A DNA stretch of 64,000 nucleotides from Candidatus Woesearchaeota archaeon (GCA_020637435.1 JACJVW010000001.1:150237-214236); one strand, 5' to 3'; shown: positions 32,189 through 43,991, numbered from the stretch's first letter. Numbers and translations: made by a program. The notes: generated by a model not told the origin, from the letters alone.

Positions 32189-32632
32189 TCATTCAGACTC
32201 CTTATAAGCAATCCAGAGAGGATGTTTTAAAGCAGATTTATCGCACAAACGAAATATTCTACCAATTAGCGTAACTGGTTTCTTATCTGTACCATGATTG
32301 AGAATACAATCTGCAATTTCCATTTTATTATCTGTAAACGCTGATAACGAAAGATTGTTTATTAATTTCAAACTTACCTGAGCGTGGCCTTTATCAAGGA
32401 TAGTTTTTCCAATATCATGGAATAATGCAGAGATTATACCAATAGCCTGCCAATTGGGACAGATTTCATCTATCTGCGTTTTGTAACAACAAGAAGTGAA
32501 TTCATCAAGAACGCATAAAGAATGCGTACGAATTGTACTTTTTTGGGTATGATTCTGAAATTCGAAAGAATCAAATATTTTCAAACATTCGCGGTACAAT
32601 ATTTGGTTTTGCTCACTAAAAAGATTTCTCAT
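32189..32632 (-). CDS. HD-domain phosphohydrolase (small, stand-alone)
   Basis: The HD motif ALFHDIGK is present, with upstream His (THSL) and downstream His and Asp (ILNHG, LCDKSA). It overlaps the radical SAM gene by 4 nt. Confidence 0.7.
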   Translation of the reverse strand: MRNLFSEQNQILYRECLKIFDSFEFQNHTQKSTIRTHSLCVLDEFTSCCYKTQIDEICPNWQAIGIISALFHDIGKTILDKGHAQVSLKLINNLSLSAFTDNKMEIADCILNHGTDKKPVTLIGRIFRLCDKSALKHPLWIAYKESE

Positions 32633-33606
32633 TTATGAACCTCCCAAAACTTGTTTTCATGATAAGAATCTTGAAAAACATCAATTAAATACCTCAATCC
32701 AATCTGAAACATCTTTGGGTGAGATGCATCAAGATAGACAGGTGATAATCTACAAGGTATTAACTGCTTATCAGAACTGTAAAAAATAGTATACAATCCT
32801 TCCTGGCAAGGAAGTGAAGAGCAAGAATCACAGAAATCGTCATGATACCTTGTTCCACTAGTGCTGTCCTTAATTCTAACAGTGTGTGATGAATTCTTTA
32901 ATTCATATTCAAGACTAGGTATCCCAAAAAAACGAGTGTATGTAATTTGCCGTGCATGCTTACTTCTTTTTTTTACTTGATTCCTAGCTCTTTCTAACGG
33001 AGTGTACAAAGACCCCCATTGTCCTTTATTACAGGTAGTTGAGTACATATCAAATAGCTTCAAATTAATTCCCAGCTCCGATGTCAAATCCAAGAGACTT
33101 TCAACTTGTCCAAGATTTTCTTCGGTAACCACCATTGCTAAACGATTTAAAATACCCCTTTTTGCAGTTTCTCTTATACTATTCATTGTCCTATCATACA
33201 TCCTCTCAGAAACACCACAAATAGAAGCAAACATATTTTTCTCAACTGCATCAAGACTGATTCTCAGATCTAGCCTCTTCAAAGAACTAAGATCTTCAAT
33301 ATATTTATGAATCATACTCCCATTTGTTGCCAGAGCATATTCCATATCAGTTTGGGTATCCAGGAATTTCATAACATCAATTGTGCCTTTGGCAATCAAA
33401 GGTTCACCCCCTGTAAGTCGAATTTTTGAGATCCCCTCCTGCTGCGCAATTTTCAATTTGGCGCAAAGATCATCTACATCAATGTCTTCTGAATTTGTTC
33501 CAAAACCTTCACCCATACCTCCCTCACCATCAGGACTACAATAATTACACCTGAAATTACACTTGTTAGTTACTGCAACCGTTAAATAAGGGACTTTGTG
33601 AATCAT
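32629..33606 (-). CDS. MoaA-like radical SAM enzyme
   Basis: The CX3CX2C motif lies in VAVTNKCNFRCNYCSP. IRLTGGEPL and ALATNG follow. The C-terminal Cys cluster FCDSCSSLPCQEG...LIPC parallels the auxiliary cluster region of MoaA. Confidence 0.8.
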   Translation of the reverse strand: MIHKVPYLTVAVTNKCNFRCNYCSPDGEGGMGEGFGTNSEDIDVDDLCAKLKIAQQEGISKIRLTGGEPLIAKGTIDVMKFLDTQTDMEYALATNGSMIHKYIEDLSSLKRLDLRISLDAVEKNMFASICGVSERMYDRTMNSIRETAKRGILNRLAMVVTEENLGQVESLLDLTSELGINLKLFDMYSTTCNKGQWGSLYTPLERARNQVKKRSKHARQITYTRFFGIPSLEYELKNSSHTVRIKDSTSGTRYHDDFCDSCSSLPCQEGLYTIFYSSDKQLIPCRLSPVYLDASHPKMFQIGLRYLIDVFQDSYHENKFWEVHK

Positions 33607-34487
33607 GCTCTTTCACCTAGTAAAGTGTGAAACCTCTTCCCCAAATGGGGATCCAGTTTAGTCGCATAAAAGAAACTTACGCTTCTCAGTATCCTGTTTT
33701 CCTCATTATAGTCAATTGCTTCAGAAATAAAGTTGAGATAATCTTGAATTTCTGGGGAATATGATCCGATAATCTCTTGATTCTCAAACCTAGCCAACAT
33801 TCGTTTTCTATGCAAATCTCTTAGAGATTCATATGCATCATCTTGACTAGAAATAGTTGGATATATGTCCTTCAAAAAACTGTATCTCTTCAATAATTTT
33901 CTCCTAATTTTTATTGGGTCATTAATTATATCGATGAGCTTATACCTAGTAGTTGTATTCTTTACAAAAAACTCAAAATTTTTCCCTTCAAAGTACTGAA
34001 AATTGTCGTTTGTATTAGAAGGCAATACACACCCTAAACATTCTATCTCAGTCTGAAAAACATGATCAAAAAAAGATCTCCCCAAGTTTGATACAGTAAT
34101 ACTGGAATAATGTTTAGAATCATTTTTTGTAAGACGGGTTATGGAATCAAAATCCACCAAATGATCAAGACCAAGAAGTTCATAATCAAACTGCCGGTGA
34201 AAAAACTCATCAGCAGAATATTCATTTGGAGAATCGTGTAGCTCCCTGATAGCATCCCTCCTTCTTTTGCGTTGCATTCGTAACTGGTCACGATATGGTT
34301 TATCTGATAATCTAGATGAAAGATAAAGGTACATTGGTATACTATCAACAAGAATTTGAGTGGAACCTCTATTGTAATTCAATTTAACAGAATTCGGAAG
34401 GTCATATACCTTCTTTATTTCAGACTGATGAAGGTCTAACATAAGTTCTCTGAGTGGTTTGTTTCCTTGGTAATTTTTCTGGTTCAT
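33603..34487 (-). CDS. hypothetical protein (first gene of AT-rich island)
   Basis: The start is ATG 34487, where the track used GTG 34502. It overlaps the radical SAM gene by 4 nt. No motif was recognised. Confidence 0.55.
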   Translation of the reverse strand: MNQKNYQGNKPLRELMLDLHQSEIKKVYDLPNSVKLNYNRGSTQILVDSIPMYLYLSSRLSDKPYRDQLRMQRKRRRDAIRELHDSPNEYSADEFFHRQFDYELLGLDHLVDFDSITRLTKNDSKHYSSITVSNLGRSFFDHVFQTEIECLGCVLPSNTNDNFQYFEGKNFEFFVKNTTTRYKLIDIINDPIKIRRKLLKRYSFLKDIYPTISSQDDAYESLRDLHRKRMLARFENQEIIGSYSPEIQDYLNFISEAIDYNEENRILRSVSFFYATKLDPHLGKRFHTLLGERA

Positions 34488-34746
34488 GATCAATAATCTC
34501 ACAGTAATCCCTTAGCTTTAATGTAGATTATCAAGAAGAAATTGAAGAATTTTCAAAACCAGAAAATTATATTGAAAATCTTTGGAACAAGAGTCCAGAA
34601 GAAATAACAATTAAGCAACAGTAGAAATGACCGAGTTGAATAGAATTGGGTAGTTAGTATGCTTAATATCCCAAAATTGATTTGCTCAATTTATAATAGC
34701 ACTACTTTGACTAAACAAAATCTATGAAGTGATTCCTTAAGTTAAG

Positions 34747-37616: not shown

Positions 37617-38387
37617 TCAAATGAAGAAAAGATAGTAAAGAGTGATTAGCAACACGAAAAAGATATTGACCAACAACCCTTTCTGCAGCTCATTACGTTT
37701 GCCGCTAAGCGCAAAATAGGCGAAGAAGACTGCGCAGTATCCCCCAAGGTGCGCCCAATGACCTATGCCGTCATTGACTGGATAGAGCACACCACTGATA
37801 TCAGACCAGATAGCAATCCAGGCTACCGCGAGCACCGGCATAGGAAATCCAAACAGCATATACGTCAGATAGAACGGCTCTATAAGGATAGCGACAGCGA
37901 TTATACCTGCGATAGCCCCGCTCGCCCCAAGACCTCCCTGGCCGGCCAATGCACTGAACACATCAGCGATAAGCGCAGACATGAAGTACACAAGGAGATA
38001 CTTCACGGGCGATATCTTCCGCTCAAGTATTCGACCGAAGATGTAGAGAAAGAGCATATTTCCCAGAAGGTGTAATAGGTTCGCATGCAAAAACCACGAC
38101 GACACGATAGGTACCACATTAAAAGTCAGTAGATCAGCGGGCATGAAGATAAGCTCACGCAACTGCTCTTCACTCAGATAGAAGATCTCCAGCAGATACA
38201 CAATACTGTTCAGGAAGATAAGCGCAACTGTTAGCTTAGGTTCGAAGAGGAAGACGCCTAGTTCGCGAAGCGGTTTCGTCAATTCATCGGCGCCTCGTTT
38301 ACCAAACAGCACAAGGATAAGCAGGAACGGCAGCTTAAGGACAAACACCAGTTGCCTCCAGACGAATCCAGACTCGCTCTCTATCAT
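37617..38387 (-). CDS. rhomboid-family intramembrane serine protease
   Basis: HANLLHLLGNMLFLYIFG is followed by the catalytic GASGAIAGI and AHLGG. Confidence 0.85.
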   Translation of the reverse strand: MIESESGFVWRQLVFVLKLPFLLILVLFGKRGADELTKPLRELGVFLFEPKLTVALIFLNSIVYLLEIFYLSEEQLRELIFMPADLLTFNVVPIVSSWFLHANLLHLLGNMLFLYIFGRILERKISPVKYLLVYFMSALIADVFSALAGQGGLGASGAIAGIIAVAILIEPFYLTYMLFGFPMPVLAVAWIAIWSDISGVLYPVNDGIGHWAHLGGYCAVFFAYFALSGKRNELQKGLLVNIFFVLLITLYYLFFI

Positions 38388-38644: not shown

Positions 38645-38648
38645 CCGA

Positions 38649-38876
38649 CATTTGAGCAAATGTACAATAAAAGACATCCACATCATCAAGTGTGGATGGA
38701 AGCATTTGCGAAAATGGCGGGGTACATTTGAGCAAATGTACAATAAAAGACATCCACATCATCAAGTGTGGATGGAAGCATTTGCGAAAATGAGAGGGTA
38801 CAAGAATCAATGTACGAAAAAAAACCTCATCAGCAAGTGAGGATGGAAGCATTGATTCGAAACAAAAGTTTATAGC
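38649..38876. repeat. 76-bp tandem repeat, 2 near-identical units plus 1 diverged unit, each with palindromes/hairpin
   Basis: The units start at 38649, 38725 and 38801. Units 1 and 2 contain the palindrome ACATTTG-AG-CAAATGT and the hairpin CATCCACA-tcatcaag-TGTGGATG. Unit 3 keeps the hairpin as CCTCA-tcagcaag-TGAGG. Confidence 0.85.
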
Positions 38877-40173: not shown

Positions 40174-40737
40174 TTACAATTTCTTTGATTTCTTCACTTC
40201 GTACTTCAACAGAAGAGAGTTTGGTATAGAGATGGTATCACCTGTCTTCGTGACCAGCCTAGTCTCTGTAAGATTTATCTGTTCGACCTTGCCGCGCATG
40301 CCTCTAAAGACAAGAATATCTCCTTCATGGATAAATCCCTTTCCTTGGATGCTCAGGCCTGCAAAAAAGTTCGGAATGAAATCCCTTACTGCCAGTACAA
40401 AGGATATCAACAAGACAAGAATGATCGCAGCCGATATAAGATACAATAGAGGCGTAGTCAATCCCAGTTGATTCAGTGCCATGATGATGACAAAGAAGTA
40501 GATAAGATAGCTGGTAACTCTCCCCGTCGCTTCTTCAAGGTTCAATCGTCTCTTCGTCGCGCTCTTGATCATCTTATCAAGCTCAATCTCATGCAAAACG
40601 CGATGGACAACTTTGCCAAGAAGTCTACCGACAACAAAACCGATAAGGATGATGACAGCCGCTAGTATAAACCGAACAAGAATATCAGAATACACTATAG
40701 AACTGTAATCGAAGAGCTTATCGATGATGGACATCAC
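40174..40737 (-). CDS. small MscS-like mechanosensitive channel protein
   Basis: Three TM helices are followed by the beta-domain segment GDILVFRGMRGKVEQINLTETRLVTKTGDTISIPNS. It is short and lacks the usual C-terminal domain. Confidence 0.6.
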   Translation of the reverse strand: MMSIIDKLFDYSSIVYSDILVRFILAAVIILIGFVVGRLLGKVVHRVLHEIELDKMIKSATKRRLNLEEATGRVTSYLIYFFVIIMALNQLGLTTPLLYLISAAIILVLLISFVLAVRDFIPNFFAGLSIQGKGFIHEGDILVFRGMRGKVEQINLTETRLVTKTGDTISIPNSLLLKYEVKKSKKL

Positions 40738-41408
40738 TTATACCTCTTCTTGCCACCCATATAGATTATCGCTTTCTTCTGGCGCTGCAGACCAAAATAA
40801 ATGATAGCCAGTATCACAAGGATAAGGATGACGAACGCATAACCTGTGTAAGCAGAAGGGACATCTTCAGATGCCGTAGCAGGGTGATCGACAGTGTTGC
40901 AGGTGTGATTGATGACTTCACCCTCACAAGACACATTAAGGCATCTGTAGATACGGGTATTGCAAAATTCATAATCGAGGCATTCAGCATCGCTCTCACA
41001 TTCAAGGTCTTCCTTAAGAGTCATAGTCAAACTCTTTTTGATATCAGTGCAAACTTCCCTTTGCGTGATACTATCCAGTTGGCTCACATTGACGCAACCT
41101 TTATAGAAATAGGTGAATCCTTCATCTGGTTTGAACATCGGTACCTCAAACGTCAAAGAATAAATCTCCCCTGGCGCAATAAGAACAGGGCTGGATACCT
41201 GACCGAACCTTTTTTCAAGCTGAGTCTCATAGAGGAAGTAATCCGTCACCACGATAGAGAAATTTAGATTGTTCTCAATAGTCATATTAAACTCAACATT
41301 CTCTCCATCAAGACAGATATTGTTGGGACATGTATGGCTGACACTTATACCTGCATATGCTACTGACGAAAGCATGAAAAGCATGATAATTCCGAGTATG
41401 GATTTCAT
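40734..41408 (-). CDS. Cys-rich surface protein with signal peptide and C-terminal TM anchor
   Basis: The signal peptide is MKSILGIIMLFMLSSVAYA. A Cys-rich stalk (CESDAECLDYEFCNTRIYRCLNVSCEGEVINHTC) precedes the TM helix YAFVILILVILAIIYF. Confidence 0.6.
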   Translation of the reverse strand: MKSILGIIMLFMLSSVAYAGISVSHTCPNNICLDGENVEFNMTIENNLNFSIVVTDYFLYETQLEKRFGQVSSPVLIAPGEIYSLTFEVPMFKPDEGFTYFYKGCVNVSQLDSITQREVCTDIKKSLTMTLKEDLECESDAECLDYEFCNTRIYRCLNVSCEGEVINHTCNTVDHPATASEDVPSAYTGYAFVILILVILAIIYFGLQRQKKAIIYMGGKKRYK

Positions 41409-41521
41409 GAGAATATGGACTATGATTTACCTTATAAATCTTATTTTTAGTGAAAAGTCCTAAGATATCAGAAAAAGTTACCAAGATGTAGATACGCTGC
41501 TTACATCAAGCAGTAAAACAT

Positions 41522-42910
41522 TCATTTCCTATGGTCACTCAGCCAGCTTCGAAATACAGCTGCATCCTCTGGTGAATTATTGAGCTTATCCATGATATAC
41601 GCATACATACCCTTAAGCATCTGACAGCGCGCATTCAAAGGATTGATAGTAACCAGATTCCCTGATTCCGCGTAATTGCAGACCGGACATACCCCGCAAT
41701 AGGGTTTCCATACGCAGGTATCGCACATCAGCGTATCATTAGTGGATGCGGCGACGATACTCATGACCTTATCGCTCGTGATGACTGACTGGTAATCTTC
41801 TTCCTCAACATTTCCAAGCTTAAAGATCTCTCCGGCAAGCCTTCCCTCATCACAAGTGTAAATATCTCCTTTCTCTGTATAAGCTATCTGGCCGGTGGCT
41901 GCGCCGCACGGGCTTGCCAGATCAGTGTACCAGGCATTCTCTAGATGAAACTTCTTCAGAATATAATAAACAAATCTGTCCGGAAGCAGCCTTCCTTTCT
42001 TATTGATCTCGAGCAGATACTCCATCCCTTCCTTCCAGAATGAAAGGAATTCCTCCGCCGTGTACATGATATCGGGTTCATCCTGCGCATAGCCAAGATT
42101 GTCCAGATAGCGAAGTTTCAACCAGGGCAGGTCATACTTGAGATATTCGTCGATGATCTCTTTAGCATAGGGCAGACTCCTCTTCGTGATGACCATAAGC
42201 GCGTTGACCGGATAATTGTACTCCTCCTTGATGCGCCTGATCCATTTTGTGGTGATAGCATGTCCGCTGCCCTGACCAAGCATCGCCCTATTTTTGTCAT
42301 GGATATAAGCCGGGCCATCCAACGTGGTGCAGATCTCAACATTATGCTCCATAAGATAAGCAAGATACTGCTCATTCATCGCAGCAAGATTTGTCACAAG
42401 AGCGAATTTCACCTGTTTAGGTTGCTCCTGCTGCTTATGCTTCACACGCTCGATGATATACTGCACTATCCTGAAATTAAGCAGCGCATCCCCTCCCTGA
42501 AACTCGATCGTGAGCGGATCAGAAGGGCATTCGAAGATAAAGTCGACTATTCTTCGGGCAGTCGGCCGGTCAAGATCATAGCCCTGCTCAGTAAGCGGCA
42601 CAGACTTGGAATGACAATAGCTGCATTTATGATTGCATCGTTGCGTAGGAACGACGATATGCAAGCTTGGTCCCTGTTTGATATGAGCATATTTCTCTTC
42701 ATATTGTGCGACAATTTTCCCCCTGTTCTTTGGAGTAAGTATGACCAGCTCCTTCTCAAGACGTTTGTAAAGCGCACTGTCTTCGCTGATCTTGCCGCTG
42801 GAGAGAAGCTCATAGTCGGGCTTGTCCAGGACAACCCATGCACCGCTATCGCTCGTCACTAGCATCTGATCCCGCAAGGGTAGCGAACGCAATTTTACTG
42901 ATTCCATCAT
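41522..42910 (-). CDS. radical SAM/SPASM-domain maturase (HxsB/anSME-like)
   Basis: The CX3CX2C motif lies in VPTQRCNHKCSYCHS, after an N-terminal extension of about 95 aa. The C-terminal SPASM Cys motif is CDTCVWKPYCGVCPVCNY. ATG 42910 overlaps the upstream stop as ATGA. Confidence 0.85.
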   Translation of the reverse strand: MMESVKLRSLPLRDQMLVTSDSGAWVVLDKPDYELLSSGKISEDSALYKRLEKELVILTPKNRGKIVAQYEEKYAHIKQGPSLHIVVPTQRCNHKCSYCHSKSVPLTEQGYDLDRPTARRIVDFIFECPSDPLTIEFQGGDALLNFRIVQYIIERVKHKQQEQPKQVKFALVTNLAAMNEQYLAYLMEHNVEICTTLDGPAYIHDKNRAMLGQGSGHAITTKWIRRIKEEYNYPVNALMVITKRSLPYAKEIIDEYLKYDLPWLKLRYLDNLGYAQDEPDIMYTAEEFLSFWKEGMEYLLEINKKGRLLPDRFVYYILKKFHLENAWYTDLASPCGAATGQIAYTEKGDIYTCDEGRLAGEIFKLGNVEEEDYQSVITSDKVMSIVAASTNDTLMCDTCVWKPYCGVCPVCNYAESGNLVTINPLNARCQMLKGMYAYIMDKLNNSPEDAAVFRSWLSDHRK

Positions 42911-43122
42911 AGTACATACTCGTTTGCAACAGTGCCAAACGCGTAATTGCAAAATTCAAGTCCGACCTCTTCAAGGTCTCCTTCACCTTTGAGTTCAAGC
43001 CGTACCTGTGAACCAACTAGCTCTGCTTCAACAATATCAGCGAAAGCAGCTATAGTTTCCTGTATTGAATCAAAAGGATAGAACTTTGTGGCAAAATCGA
43101 TCACCATCACCTTGCCTTCCAT
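42907..43122 (-). CDS. small HxsD-like protein (71 aa)
   Basis: The start ATG 43122 lies directly after the upstream stop. The product is acidic, with KFYPFDSIQETIAAFADI and EFCNYAFG segments. The HxsD resemblance comes from memory of that family and is not verified. Confidence 0.45.
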   Translation of the reverse strand: MEGKVMVIDFATKFYPFDSIQETIAAFADIVEAELVGSQVRLELKGEGDLEEVGLEFCNYAFGTVANEYVL

Positions 43123-43123
43123 C

Positions 43124-43453
43124 TTAATCAGAAGGATCACCCCAGGGTACAAGCAGTTCTTCTCTGTTAGGGTCATAGCCGGCTGTCAATAAGACTCTTT
43201 GCTGCAGCAATTGTCTCGTCTTCGCGTGCTGCGAAGATTGCAGACCGTACATCGCAAGGCAAATCAACTGATCCCAAAACAGATGCACCACATCAGTCTT
43301 ACCATCTTTGGGGCGTAGATAGACCTGTACATGTGCATCATCTTCTTCAAAAAACACATATGATTTTTCCAGAAGCGCATACGCTGCCGCATACACTACT
43401 TCCAGAGGAAAAATATCGTTATGCACACAGATGATCTTAAACCCATCCAACAT
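43124..43453 (-). CDS. small HxsD-like protein (109 aa)
   Basis: ATG 43453 (MLDGFKIICVH) lies 26 nt from the centre of the TATA element at 43475-43483; the track started at TTG 43474. The IFPLEVVYAAAYALLEKSYVFF and FWDQLICLAMYGL segments are reminiscent of HxsD. Confidence 0.5.
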   Translation of the reverse strand: MLDGFKIICVHNDIFPLEVVYAAAYALLEKSYVFFEEDDAHVQVYLRPKDGKTDVVHLFWDQLICLAMYGLQSSQHAKTRQLLQQRVLLTAGYDPNREELLVPWGDPSD

Positions 43454-43474
43454 AGGAACAGGGGCATATTCCAA

Positions 43475-43483
43475 TTTTAAAAA
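43475..43483. promoter_or_regulatory. near-palindromic TATA-like element (TTTTAAAAA) between divergent coding potential
   Basis: It lies about 26 nt upstream of ATG 43453 on the minus strand and about 22 nt upstream of GTG 43501 on the plus strand. Confidence 0.45.
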
Positions 43484-43500
43484 GGTTGCTGCTATAACCA

Positions 43501-43581
43501 GTGCTCCGAAAGGAAGTCATCGATGTACGCAAAAAGAATTTTGGACAAATGTTAGGTGCAGCTGAACAGAGATGTTTCTGA
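43501..43581 (+). CDS. candidate small ORF 1 (26 aa, GTG start: MLRKEVIDVRKKNFGQM-LGAAEQRCF)
   Basis: It begins at the first base of 50-bp repeat copy 1. Its first 17 codons are identical to those of candidate ORF 2. There is no independent expression evidence. Confidence 0.25.
   Translation: MLRKEVIDVRKKNFGQMLGAAEQRCF
43502..43551. repeat. 50-bp perfect direct repeat, copy 1
   Basis: The sequence TGCTCCGAAAGGAAGTCATCGATGTACGCAAAAAGAATTTTGGACAAATG is identical to 43644-43693. It contains the palindrome CATCGATG. Confidence 0.95.
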
Positions 43582-43642
43582 ACAGGTATCACCTCATTTG
43601 GACAAAACGAGCATCGATGACTGCAGTGAGGAGTACTGGTCA

Positions 43643-43747
43643 ATGCTCCGAAAGGAAGTCATCGATGTACGCAAAAAGAATTTTGGACAAATGAAAGGTA
43701 CAGAAATAGTATATAATAGAATTACAGCAGATTGCGAACTTTGGTGA
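43643..43747 (+). CDS. candidate small ORF 2 (34 aa: MLRKEVIDVRKKNFGQM-KGTEIVYNRITADCELW)
   Basis: ATG 43643 is preceded by GTGAGGAG about 11 nt upstream. Its N-terminal 17 aa are identical to those of ORF 1. Its 3' end overlaps the convergent wHTH gene. Confidence 0.3.
   Translation: MLRKEVIDVRKKNFGQMKGTEIVYNRITADCELW
43644..43693. repeat. 50-bp perfect direct repeat, copy 2
   Basis: It is identical to 43502-43551 and lies 142 bp downstream. A partial third set of the submotifs (TTGGACAAA, CATCGATG) lies between the copies at 43598-43619. Confidence 0.95.
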
Positions 43748-43991
43748 TAAGTTCTGCTATCTCGTTGCCTTTTTTCGTCAGCGTCAGCAGTTTAAGCCGT
43801 CCTTGTTTGTCGAAATTGATGATTCCAGCATTCTGCATTTCCTGAAGGATCTTGACCACATGAGAATAGGTACAATCAATCTTCTTTGCAAGGCTGGAAG
43901 CATAGATTTCTGACTTCGCATTGCGAAGTTCAACAAGGATCATCGCTGGTTTCTGACGGAAAATAACATTGAAGATATTCTCATCGGTCAT
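43722..43991 (-). CDS. small winged-helix transcriptional regulator
   Basis: The 89-aa product contains IYASSLAKKIDCTYSHVVKILQEMQNAGIINFDKQGRLKLLTLTKKG, a wHTH of ArsR/MarR-like type. Confidence 0.7.
   Translation of the reverse strand: MTDENIFNVIFRQKPAMILVELRNAKSEIYASSLAKKIDCTYSHVVKILQEMQNAGIINFDKQGRLKLLTLTKKGNEIAELITKVRNLL

What the first reader, a model, noticed from the sequence alone, without database searches (positions are those of the whole stretch)
40734..43991. Radical SAM/SPASM maturase locus with two HxsD-like proteins, a dedicated wHTH regulator and a neighbouring Cys-rich surface protein, but no obvious precursor gene
The minus-strand order starts with a wHTH regulator (43991-43722) and a repeat-containing spacer. 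Next come a 109-aa and a 71-aa small acidic protein (adjacent stop and start) and a 462-aa radical SAM enzyme coupled by an ATGA overlap. This enzyme has CNHKCSYC, a roughly 95-aa N-terminal extension, and a C-terminal SPASM motif CDTCVWKPYCGVCPVCNY. After a 113-bp gap comes a secreted, membrane-anchored protein with a densely Cys-rich stalk. The size and layout of the enzyme, and the small partner proteins, recall the His-Xaa-Ser (HxsB/HxsD) type of peptide-maturation system; that resemblance is from memory and unverified. HxsC and an HxsA-like repeat precursor are missing. SPASM enzymes normally modify a peptide or protein substrate, so the substrate here is undefined. Candidates are the small ORFs in the spacer (next finding) or the Cys-rich protein downstream.
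Basis: partly seen in the sequence, partly recalled or inferred. Interest (0 to 1): 0.7.

Follow-up and report, generated by a model that had tools for sequence, protein, structure and literature searches.

The report
Peptide-maturase genes missing their substrate
A small archaeon (Woesearchaeota) carries the enzyme half of a "His-Xaa-Ser" protein-maturation system, one radical-SAM enzyme and two small helper proteins, but not the repeat protein this enzyme normally modifies, so it is an incomplete copy of a catalogued system and not a new kind.

Summary

**What matches**
- The 462-aa enzyme scores 410.6 bits on NCBIfam TIGR03978 (HxsB, cutoff 370), against 95.7 bits for the anaerobic sulfatase maturase model.
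- The 71-aa protein scores 40.3 bits on HxsD_rel (NF038315, cutoff 41).
- The 109-aa protein is a divergent HxsD (PF27806).

**What relatives have**
- About 100 related loci, mostly DPANN archaea and CPR bacteria, share the core [long HxsD][short HxsD][HxsB].
- Most relatives also encode a leader-bearing, membrane-anchored His-Xaa-Ser repeat protein next door. NCBIfam already models it as HxsA3/HxsA4.
- Many relatives add an HxsC-like second radical-SAM enzyme or an A24-type peptidase.

**What the window lacks**
- None of these extras is present anywhere in the 64-kb window.
- The wHTH gene and the Cys-rich surface protein have no homologue at any related locus. Homologues of the Cys-rich protein sit away from HxsB.
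- Neither neighbour is therefore supported as regulator or substrate.

**Best reading:** an intact maturase half-cassette whose HxsA-type substrate is encoded elsewhere in the 782-kb genome contig, or has been lost. The long HxsD is unusually diverged, which fits relaxation or retargeting.

Interest is moderate to low.

The parts
41522..42910 (-). HxsB-type radical SAM/SPASM maturase, 462 aa. It has an N-terminal RRE-like domain (residues ~1-80), a CNHKCSYC radical-SAM cluster motif and a C-terminal SPASM cysteine set.
   Evidence: - TIGR03978 scores 410.6 bits, above the 370 cutoff.
- It retains 86 of 98 columns that are at least 90% conserved. All the invariant Cys are retained.
- The AF2 model has pLDDT 90.7.
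- The best PDB matches are CteB 5WHY/5WGG (E 2.5e-20, full length) and anSME 4K37.
42907..43122 (-). Short HxsD paralogue (HxsD_rel), 71 aa, or 89 aa from ATG 43176. It is translationally coupled to HxsB by an ATGA overlap.
   Evidence: - NF038315 scores 40.3 bits against a cutoff of 41.
- It aligns with the 65-85-aa gene that sits immediately upstream of HxsB in relatives. The Y...EFxNYxLG motif is partly kept, as EFCNYAFG.
- The junction was read directly.
43124..43453 (-). Long HxsD paralogue, 109 aa: an HxsD domain plus a C-terminal PW tail motif. It is unusually diverged.
   Evidence: - TIGR03976 scores 25.8 bits, below the 50 cutoff.
- The identical proteins P0121 and L092 carry a PF27806:HxsD hit.
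- phmmer finds 53 related ORFs upstream of HxsB genes.
- It keeps only 17 of 41 columns that are at least 90% conserved. NELLNY has become DQLICL.
- The AF2 model has pLDDT 83 and a beta-alpha-beta-beta-alpha-alpha fold. No PDB match has E below 0.05.
43454..43721 (.). Upstream spacer and probable promoter/operator region of the cassette. It holds a TATA-like TTTTTAAAATT about 25 nt before ATG 43453, two copies of a 63-nt repeat, three exact TTTGGACAAA boxes and a long hairpin.
   Evidence: - Repeats and inverted repeats.
- A 40-nt core found twice, with 0 expected.
- TTTGGACAAA occurs three times here and only once more, exactly, in the 64 kb.
- RNA fold z-score -6.26.
- No Rfam match.
- The promoter and operator roles are inference from sequence only.
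43722..43991 (-). Small winged-helix protein, 89 aa. It is a neighbour and has not been shown to belong to the system.
   Evidence: - Only sub-threshold wHTH hits: HTH_45 at 24.8 bits (cutoff 25.5) and ArsR-type at 21.6 bits.
- No homologue in any of 90 HxsB loci.
40734..41408 (-). Cys-rich surface protein, 224 aa: signal peptide, conserved domain, Cys-rich stalk, C-terminal TM helix. It is a neighbour and has not been shown to belong to the system.
   Evidence: - No Pfam or NCBIfam family.
- 52 homologue clusters share the same architecture.
- None occurs at any HxsB locus.
- The homologue contexts L096 and L097 lack HxsB.

Best explanation
Positions 41522-43453 (minus strand) form one translationally coupled operon: long HxsD, short HxsD, HxsB. 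This is the maturase half of the DPANN/CPR-type His-Xaa-Ser system.

**Shown**
- Family membership of the three genes.
- Conservation of this three-gene order.
- Integrity of the enzyme's cluster-binding cysteines.
- Absence of HxsA, HxsC and an A24-type peptidase from the 64-kb window.

**Inferred mechanism**
- HxsB is a cytoplasmic radical-SAM/SPASM enzyme built like CteB.
- It captures the conserved N-terminal leader of an HxsA3/HxsA4-type protein. That leader reads KLPKIKKxIxxFLxxEEGKIxKK, then K-x-G, then a hydrophobic helix.
- Capture uses the enzyme's N-terminal RRE-like domain, the HxsD pair, or both. In E. coli, HxsD is required for HxsA processing and binds the partner enzyme HxsC.
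- HxsB then installs a radical modification on the His/Ser(/Cys)-rich repeats before the protein is exported and anchored at the cell surface.

**In this genome**
- The cognate HxsA-type substrate is not linked to the enzyme genes. Most likely it is encoded elsewhere on the 782-kb contig.
- Less likely, it has been lost and the cassette is drifting.

The biological role, for example an envelope-level barrier like the E. coli HXS antiphage system, is an extrapolation.
For: - HxsB scores above NCBIfam's trusted cutoff. The best homologues are DPANN or CPR proteins that NCBI and JGI name HxsB.
- Of 26 related loci with at least 4 kb on both sides, 23 have an HxsD-family ORF and 20 have two or more. 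Sixteen have a leader-type HxsA3/A4 gene, 15 an HxsC-like radical-SAM gene and 9 an A24-like peptidase gene. Only 4 lack all three extras (3 distinct, since L033 and L034 are near-duplicates).
- The neighbour family is HxsA4/HxsA3: NF038313 at 61.6 and 54.1 bits against a cutoff of 55. Its sequences show leader, helix and (HxS)n repeats.
- All the closest relatives (48-49% identity: L008-L011, L093) have such a gene within 1 kb.
- All 17 viral-collection loci with HxsB have either an HxS-repeat gene or a second HxsC-like radical-SAM gene. Sixteen of the 17 have the HxS-repeat gene.
- The coupled junctions are intact. An independent assembly, L092, reproduces the gene order.
- The HxsB model is confident and aligns over its full length, RRE-like N-terminus included, with CteB.
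- PMC13128918 shows that E. coli HxsB, HxsC and HxsD are all needed to mature HxsA.
Against: - No HxsA-like gene, leader or HxS repeat was found in 64 kb. A substrate encoded in trans is assumed, not observed.
- The rest of the genome could not be searched with these tools.
- The long HxsD has lost 24 of 41 highly conserved positions, including the LLN(D)Y-type motif. Mutating that motif impairs E. coli HxsD. This fits decay or a change of partner at least as well as normal function.
- No HxsC-type second enzyme is present. The only other radical-SAM gene in the window is MoaA/viperin-like.
- The chemistry of HxsB is unknown even in E. coli.
Confidence: 0.6

Rival explanations
1. Orphan remnant. 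The locus once had the full DPANN-type set of HxsA4, with or without the A24 peptidase and HxsC-like enzyme. It lost them, and the remaining three genes have no substrate and are drifting.
For: - The long HxsD keeps only 41% of highly conserved columns. In the comparison sequences the figure is at least 86%, with a median of 97%.
- HxsB sits at the low end of its family: 88% against a median of 96%.
- All near relatives have HxsA4 adjacent, but the window has none in 64 kb.
- The upstream spacer is a repeat- and hairpin-rich segment, and the Logan assembly breaks there.
Against: - All three ORFs are intact and still translationally coupled.
- Every invariant Cys and motif of HxsB is retained. 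Its 12 substitutions at conserved columns are mostly conservative.
- The comparison set for HxsD was chosen by profile score, which exaggerates the contrast.
- About 1 in 7 full-flank loci are equally bare, so unlinked arrangements may be viable.
Confidence: 0.22
2. Retargeted maturase. HxsB and the diverged HxsD pair now act on a non-HxS substrate encoded next door. Candidates are the Cys-rich surface protein (40734-41408) or a small spacer ORF, for example the 68-aa ORF containing HCSHRCSFC or the two MTSFRS... peptides.
For: - Cys224 is immediately downstream on the same strand.
- Leader-bearing precursors elsewhere can have Cys-rich cores: L022 GCG repeats, and L013, L032 and L056 CHSS repeats.
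- Cys-rich exported proteins lie within 2.5 kb of HxsB in 19 other loci.
- The strong divergence of the long HxsD could reflect a new partner.
Against: - Cys224 has an ordinary Sec-type signal peptide and no HxsA-type leader.
- Its family is never found at the other 90 HxsB loci, and its homologues sit in unrelated contexts.
- It is not homologous to the recurrent Cys-rich neighbours (hhalign probability 5%).
- Those neighbours are not enriched near HxsB over the local background: 20 of 325 against 5 of 123, p = 0.49.
- The spacer ORFs have no family match, no leader and no conservation data. The 68-aa ORF overlaps the start of the HxsD gene.
Confidence: 0.1
3. Anaerobic sulfatase-maturating enzyme (anSME) or another generic SPASM enzyme, acting on a sulfatase or an unrelated target. 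The small ORFs would be irrelevant.
For: anSME is among the best structural matches (4K37, E 4.5e-18). The anSME models give weak hits.
Against: - The anSME models score 95.7 and 82.4 bits against cutoffs of 349 and 441. HxsB scores 410.6 bits against 370.
- anSME lacks the N-terminal RRE-like domain present here. CteB, which has it, matches over the full length.
- The HxsD genes are conserved and coupled to the enzyme across about 60 loci.
Confidence: 0.02

Closest known systems
E. coli / Pseudomonadota HXS antiphage system, HxsD-HxsB-HxsC-HxsA (Haft & Basu's His-Xaa-Ser system; Li et al., Nat Commun 2026, PMC13128918)
   Same: - The HxsB orthologue scores above the curated cutoff.
- An HxsD-family small protein lies directly upstream of HxsB.
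- The enzyme is a radical-SAM/SPASM protein with two cluster regions.
   Different: - No HxsC and no HxsA in the window.
- Two HxsD paralogues instead of one.
- The host is an archaeon with no periplasm or peptidoglycan, whereas E. coli HxsA has a peptidoglycan-binding domain.
- The published survey put 99.7% of systems in Pseudomonadota and did not mention archaea.
- A defence function has not been tested here.
DPANN/CPR-type His-Xaa-Ser loci catalogued only as NCBIfam models: HxsA3 NF038309, HxsA4 NF038313, HxsD_rel NF038315, HxsC4 NF038332
   Same: - The same [long HxsD][short HxsD][HxsB] core and gene order.
- The same taxa: Woese-, Nano-, Aenigm- and Iainarchaeota, plus Patescibacteria.
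   Different: - The window lacks the leader-bearing HxsA3/A4 gene found in 16 of 26 full-flank loci.
- It lacks the HxsC-like enzyme found in 15 of 26.
- It lacks the A24-like peptidase found in 9 of 26.
- Its long HxsD is far more diverged than the others.
CteB and SCIFF-type sactipeptide/ranthipeptide thioether maturases (PDB 5WHY, 5WGG; TIGR03974; PapB NF047865)
   Same: Overall architecture: an N-terminal RRE-like domain, a radical-SAM barrel and a SPASM domain with auxiliary clusters. These are the best full-length structural matches.
   Different: - Sequence scores are far below those families' cutoffs: PapB 124 against 340, SCIFF 90 against 425.
- The partners are HxsD proteins.
- The expected substrate is a membrane-anchored repeat protein, not a small Cys-rich peptide.
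- The chemistry is unknown.
Anaerobic sulfatase-maturating enzyme (anSME, PDB 4K37)
   Same: The radical-SAM plus SPASM core fold (TM-score about 0.84 on the target).
   Different: - anSME has no RRE-like N-terminal domain.
- The HMM score is 95.7 against a cutoff of 349.
- The conserved neighbours are different.

Membership tests
His-Xaa-Ser (HXS) system, canonical four-gene form | HxsB radical SAM/SPASM maturase (TIGR03978, cutoff 370 bits) | tested here: met
   410.6 bits, E 8e-123, covering residues 14-457 of 462.
His-Xaa-Ser (HXS) system, canonical four-gene form | HxsD small protein (TIGR03976, cutoff 50 bits; PF27806) encoded beside HxsB | tested here: inconclusive
   - The 109-aa protein scores 25.8 bits, below the cutoff.
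- The identical database protein carries a precomputed PF27806 hit.
- It aligns with relatives that score 55.4 bits.
- The signature LLN(D)Y motif is degenerate.
His-Xaa-Ser (HXS) system, canonical four-gene form | Second radical-SAM enzyme HxsC (TIGR03977) adjacent to HxsB | tested here: not met
   - No radical-SAM gene lies next to HxsB.
- The only other one in 64 kb (32629-33606) scores 42 bits on HxsC against a cutoff of 268. It is MoaA-like at 124.7 bits.
His-Xaa-Ser (HXS) system, canonical four-gene form | HxsA protein with tandem His-Xaa-Ser repeats | tested here: not met
   A six-frame regular-expression scan, the family HMM and the leader HMM all found nothing in the 64 kb. The rest of the genome was not searchable.
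His-Xaa-Ser (HXS) system, canonical four-gene form | Antiphage activity through a matured envelope effector | not testable with these tools
   Known only from E. coli experiments (PMC13128918).
DPANN/CPR-type Hxs variant (NCBIfam HxsD_rel / HxsA3 / HxsA4) | Short HxsD-like protein (NF038315, cutoff 41 bits) immediately upstream of HxsB | tested here: inconclusive
   The score is 40.3 bits, 0.7 below the cutoff. Position, size and motif match relatives that score 59.9 bits.
DPANN/CPR-type Hxs variant (NCBIfam HxsD_rel / HxsA3 / HxsA4) | Gene order: long HxsD, short HxsD, HxsB on one strand | tested here: met
   The window order and its coupling were read directly. The same order is seen in most related loci, and 20 of 26 full-flank loci have at least two HxsD ORFs.
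DPANN/CPR-type Hxs variant (NCBIfam HxsD_rel / HxsA3 / HxsA4) | Leader-bearing HxsA3/HxsA4 repeat protein near HxsB | tested here: not met
   The best leader-HMM hit in the window scores 5.4 bits at E = 2. Such a gene is present in 16 of 26 full-flank relatives.
RRE-dependent radical SAM/SPASM peptide maturases (CteB-like) | N-terminal RRE-like beta3-alpha3 domain, a CxxxCxxC motif and a C-terminal SPASM cysteine set | tested here: met
   - The AF2 model has strands at 7-12, 15-20 and 25-29, then helices at 30-38, 46-53 and 63-73.
- Foldseek aligns it over its full length to CteB.
- The Cys motifs are invariant.
- Leader binding itself was not tested.
Anaerobic sulfatase-maturating enzymes | Score above the TIGR03942 / NF010321 cutoffs | tested here: not met
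   95.7 bits against a cutoff of 349, and 82.4 against 441.

The most novel reading that the evidence does not exclude
This Woesearchaeon runs a minimal His-Xaa-Ser-type system of one radical-SAM enzyme and two HxsD paralogues, with no HxsC. It matures an unlinked or non-canonical surface protein as an envelope-level barrier or attachment factor. The strongly diverged long HxsD would mark a switch to a new substrate, possibly the adjacent Cys-rich surface protein. That would give a DPANN-specific, single-enzyme version of the recently described antiphage HXS chemistry.
Probability: 0.12. Interest if true: 0.7.

Novelty: new variant of a known kind. Interest (0 to 1): 0.38.

Why it matters
**Why it could matter**
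- The HXS system was shown only in 2026 to be an antiphage barrier in E. coli. Its radical chemistry is unsolved, and it was reported as almost exclusive to Pseudomonadota.
- This locus belongs to a large branch in DPANN archaea and CPR bacteria that is catalogued as NCBIfam models but absent from the papers searched here. That branch has two HxsD paralogues and leader-plus-anchor HxsA3/A4 substrates, often with an A24-type peptidase.
- The branch could offer simpler systems for reconstituting HxsB chemistry. It also hints at envelope-level defence or surface decoration in ultra-small archaea.

**Why this locus is a weak example**
- The window's copy lacks the substrate gene.
- Its main practical value is as an annotation lesson: look for HxsA elsewhere in the genome.
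- It is also a possible case of an unlinked or decaying cassette.

Tried and rejected
1. The first genome-contig scan used the single protein and returned only 7 loci, 3 of them true HxsB loci. The metagenome scan with an alignment then gave 80 loci.
2. A word-indexed search with the 116-aa HxsD found only the protein itself. A profile query was needed.
3. I tested whether the second radical-SAM gene at 32629-33606 is HxsC. It is not: it is MoaA/viperin-like.
4. I tested whether Cys224 is related to the Cys-rich exported proteins that recur near other Hxs loci. It is not (hhalign probability 5%). Those neighbours are also not enriched near HxsB (p = 0.49).
5. A 469-aa gene upstream of the Cys224 homologue in L097 looked briefly like an HxsB. 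BLASTP shows it is unrelated.
6. Foldseek with the HxsD model gave no significant PDB match. There was only weak resemblance to Pcc1 or ferredoxin-like folds, at E of 0.07 or above. No functional analogy could be drawn, and the fold is not RRE-like.
7. Rfam found nothing on the whole window or on the spacer. ARAGORN found no tRNA genes.
8. The sigma-70 promoter and terminator scanner was not used, because the organism is an archaeon.
9. The NCBI 782-kb contig that holds this window could not be fetched with the available look-ups. The search for HxsA elsewhere in the genome therefore remains open.

Full report
**Observation**

On the minus strand the genes are:
- an 89-aa winged-helix protein (43991-43722);
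- a 268-bp spacer;
- a 109-aa ORF (43453-43124);
- a 71-aa ORF (43122-42907), whose ATG follows the previous TAA after one base;
- a 462-aa radical-SAM enzyme (42910-41522), whose ATG overlaps the previous stop as ATGA;
- after 113 bp, a 224-aa protein with a signal peptide, a Cys-rich stalk and a C-terminal TM helix (41408-40734).

The CNHKCSYC motif and the SPASM stretch CDTCVWKPYCGVCPVCNY are present. C92, C96, C99, C335, C353, C396, C399, C405 and C408 lie in columns that are invariant across 41 homologues.

An independent Logan assembly (L092, SRR12358676) reproduces the same gene order. That contig ends 78 nt upstream of the 109-aa ORF, inside the repeat-rich spacer.

The 109-aa protein is identical to NCBI protein H6504_01135 of a Candidatus Woesearchaeota archaeon, on a 782-kb contig. 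The neighbouring genes (AlaRS, ArgRS, L37ae, RpoP, prefoldin, Pcc1) fit an archaeon.

**Identity of the three core genes**

- The enzyme scores 410.6 bits on NCBIfam TIGR03978, 'His-Xaa-Ser system radical SAM maturase HxsB' (cutoff 370).
- The next-best models are far lower and below their cutoffs: PapB 124 bits, the nif11-like peptide maturase 102 bits, the quinohemoprotein amine dehydrogenase maturase 99 bits, anSME 96 bits and SCIFF 90 bits.
- The 71-aa protein hits only NF038315, 'HxsD-like protein', at 40.3 bits against a cutoff of 41.
- The 109-aa protein hits only TIGR03976 (HxsD), at 25.8 bits against a cutoff of 50. Its identical database copy carries a Pfam PF27806:HxsD hit.
- Profiles iterated from either small protein converge on the same 138 ORFs. 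The two are therefore paralogues within one HxsD superfamily.

Its proposed refutation, clustering with sulfatase maturases, fails.

**Structure**

- An AlphaFold2 model of the enzyme, built from a 41-sequence alignment, has pLDDT 90.7. The N-terminal 80 residues form three strands followed by three helices, which is the topology of a RiPP recognition element.
- Foldseek's best PDB matches are the sactipeptide thioether synthase CteB over the full length (5WHY, 5WGG; E 2.5e-20), then anSME, TigE, ChlB and SuiB.
- The HxsD model (pLDDT 83) is a small beta-alpha-beta-beta-alpha-alpha sandwich. It has no significant PDB neighbour (best E 0.07, Pcc1 or ferredoxin-like). It is not an RRE.

**Comparative context**

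Homologues of the enzyme at 41-49% identity are abundant: 2905 proteins at E of 1e-20 or below among the 8000 candidates scored. Where a source names them, they come from Woese-, Nano-, Aenigm- and Iainarchaeota and from Patescibacteria, and they are already called HxsB.

I collected these loci:
- 80 metagenomic loci;
- eight loci around close homologues, of which two pairs are near-duplicates;
- three bacterial genome loci;
- 17 IMG/VR loci.

I then clustered their ORFs.

- The conserved core is [long HxsD, ~135-155 aa][short HxsD, ~65-85 aa][HxsB].
- The commonest additional neighbour, seen in 35 loci and usually right after HxsB, is a ~100-aa protein with three parts. It has a conserved leader (KLPKIKKxIxxFLxxEEGKIxKK...K-x-G), a hydrophobic helix, and tandem His-Xaa-Ser repeats (SHGSHGSHG...). 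In a few cases the repeats are CHSS or GCG instead, and the protein often ends in Tyr or Trp.
- NCBIfam already models this family as HxsA4 (NF038313: 61.6 and 54.1 bits against a cutoff of 55) and HxsA3 (NF038309).
- Many loci also carry radical-SAM genes that score best on HxsC4 or HxsC (172-180 and 108-127 bits, both below cutoff).
- Many also carry a ~370-aa polytopic protein with PF06819 and a weak PF01478 hit, which marks it as A24 prepilin-peptidase-like.

Among 26 loci with at least 4 kb on both sides:

| Feature near HxsB | Loci |
|---|---|
| HxsD-family ORF | 23 |
| Two or more HxsD ORFs | 20 |
| HxsA3/A4-type gene | 16 |
| HxsC-like gene | 15 |
| A24-like gene | 9 |
| None of the last three | 4 (3 distinct) |

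All the closest relatives of the window's enzyme have an HxsA-type gene within about 1 kb.

L002, from a Cloacimonadota bacterium, shows the canonical bacterial D-B-C-A order.

**What the window lacks**

- A leader HMM run at maximum sensitivity, HMMs of the HxsA-type and A24-like families, and a His-Xaa-Ser regular expression were run over all stop-to-stop segments in six frames of the 64 kb. They found nothing. The best leader hit scores 5.4 bits at E = 2.
- The only other radical-SAM gene (32629-33606) is MoaA/viperin-like: MoaA 124.7 bits, HxsC 42 bits.
- The window therefore holds only the maturase half, with 41 kb of sequence on one side and 20 kb on the other.

**The neighbours proposed as regulator and substrate**

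- Neither the wHTH protein, the Cys-rich protein nor the small MscS-like protein has a homologue in any of the 90 related loci (phmmer E below 0.01).
- An exhaustive HMMER search of 1.84 billion representative proteins found 52 clusters related to the Cys-rich protein. They share its architecture and its invariant cysteines. It is a member of a small family of archaeal surface proteins.
- In the two informative homologue contexts (L096, L097) there is no HxsB nearby.
- Other Hxs loci often have Cys-rich exported proteins nearby (19 loci). These are unrelated to Cys224 (hhalign probability 5%). They are also not enriched near HxsB over the local background: 20 of 325 against 5 of 123, p = 0.49.
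- The spacer ORFs match no family and lack the leader. They are the 68-aa ORF with HCSHRCSFC, the two MTSFRS... peptides created by the 63-nt repeat, and the 63-aa plus-strand ORF.
- I therefore find no support for any of these as substrate. The wHTH protein as a dedicated regulator has no support from conservation.

The spacer does look regulatory:
- a TATA-like TTTTTAAAATT lies about 25 nt upstream of ATG 43453. This favours the 109-aa start and a leaderless transcript;
- there are three exact TTTGGACAAA near-palindromes here and only one more in the 64 kb;
- a long hairpin gives an RNA fold z-score of -6.26.

That reading is inference only.

**State of the cassette**

- HxsB keeps 86 of 98 columns that are at least 90% conserved among relatives, and the changes are mostly conservative.
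- The long HxsD keeps only 17 of 41 such columns. The other sequences keep at least 86%, with a median of 97%.
- Its losses include the NELLNY motif (now DQLICL), which corresponds to the LLNDYxLRE motif of E. coli HxsD. Mutating that motif impairs HxsA processing.
- The comparison set was chosen by profile score, which inflates the contrast. Even so, the divergence is large. It fits relaxed selection or adaptation to a different partner.

**Mechanism and comparison with what is known**

The only experimental work is Li et al. 2026 (PMC13128918).
- HxsD binds HxsC.
- The matured periplasmic HxsA blocks phage DNA entry.
- That survey, based on HxsA homology, put 99.7% of systems in Pseudomonadota. 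The paper does not mention archaea.

By analogy, and from the architecture, I propose the following for this locus. The cytoplasmic HxsB recognises the leader of an HxsA3/A4-type protein through its RRE-like domain, through the HxsD pair, or through both. It then modifies the repeat region before export.

In this genome that substrate must be encoded elsewhere, or it has been lost. I put the model of an intact half-cassette with the substrate in trans at about 0.6, including near-certainty on family identity. The orphan remnant gets about 0.2, a retargeted enzyme about 0.1, and anSME-like about 0.02.

**Novelty and score**

- The gene families are already catalogued as HxsB, HxsD, HxsD_rel and HxsA3/A4, and public annotations name the enzyme's homologues HxsB.
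- Relative to the published four-gene system, this locus is a compositional variant: two HxsD paralogues, no HxsC, no linked HxsA, and an archaeal host.
- The broader DPANN/CPR branch is the more interesting lead. This window is an incomplete example of it.
- Interest: 0.38.

Noticed in passing
window 32189-34502 (minus strand): A low-GC island (GC 0.35 against about 0.45 elsewhere) holds three co-oriented genes. They are a 299-aa protein with no family, a 325-aa MoaA/viperin-like radical-SAM protein, and a 147-aa HD-domain protein. The radical-SAM protein scores 124.7 bits on MoaA (cutoff 284) and 59 bits on PADLOC pVip. This looks like a horizontally acquired module, perhaps nucleotide-modifying or defensive. 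It is not HxsC.
   Followed up: partly
window 38648-38853: The intergenic region between the rhomboid protease gene and the L37ae gene holds a 76-nt tandem repeat. Two copies are 96% identical and there is a partial third. Each copy has a small hairpin and the palindrome CATTTG-N2-CAAATG. Its half-sites recur in the three TTTGGACAAA boxes of the hxs spacer. Seven of the 10 window matches to the palindrome fall in these two regions. This may be a shared operator or a genome-specific repeat element.
   Followed up: partly
window 43454-43721: The spacer upstream of the cassette folds far better than shuffled sequence: -74.3 kcal/mol, z-score -6.26. The cause is an inverted repeat between one copy of the 63-nt repeat and the segment between the copies. 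There is no Rfam match. The Logan contig L092 ends inside it.
   Followed up: partly
related loci, e.g. L010:4172-5284, L093:3774-4889, L095:4854-5978: A ~370-aa polytopic membrane protein lies next to the Hxs genes in 9 of 26 full-flank loci. It hits PF06819 (archaeal peptidase A24 C-terminal domain), hits PF01478 weakly, and has a GDAKLF motif. HxsA3/A4 leaders end in a conserved K-x-G just before the hydrophobic helix. This suggests a dedicated prepilin-peptidase-like leader peptidase. E. coli HxsA is also N-terminally processed.
   Followed up: partly
proteins P0028, P0054, P0067: Some HxsB homologues of 771-795 aa are fused to a PF01636 (APH-type phosphotransferase/kinase) domain.
   Followed up: no
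L099-L115 (IMG/VR contigs): Seventeen contigs classed as viral carry Hxs systems. Some have the canonical D-B-C-A order. Others have the two-HxsD, A24-peptidase and leader-HxsA type. Sixteen of the 17 have an HxS-repeat gene. This fits mobility or location on prophages or genomic islands.
   Followed up: partly
L022:10180-10740, L013:1504-2013, L032:3148-3501, L056:7484-7768, L087:6376-6672, L025/L026/L060: Leader-bearing HxsA-type proteins do not always have His-Xaa-Ser cores. Some cores are Gly-Cys repeats (L022), CHSS or CTHSSC repeats (L013, L032, L056), or a non-repetitive core behind a divergent leader (L087). In three loci the HxS region is fused to a ~300-aa C-terminal domain with no family match.
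   Followed up: no
whole window 1-64000: No tRNA gene (ARAGORN) and no Rfam family at gathering threshold were found in 64 kb of an otherwise gene-dense archaeal region.
   Followed up: no
window 37617-38387 (minus strand): A rhomboid-family intramembrane serine protease (PF01694, 86.5 bits) lies 2.3 kb downstream of the Cys-rich protein gene. No link to the Hxs cassette was found.
   Followed up: no
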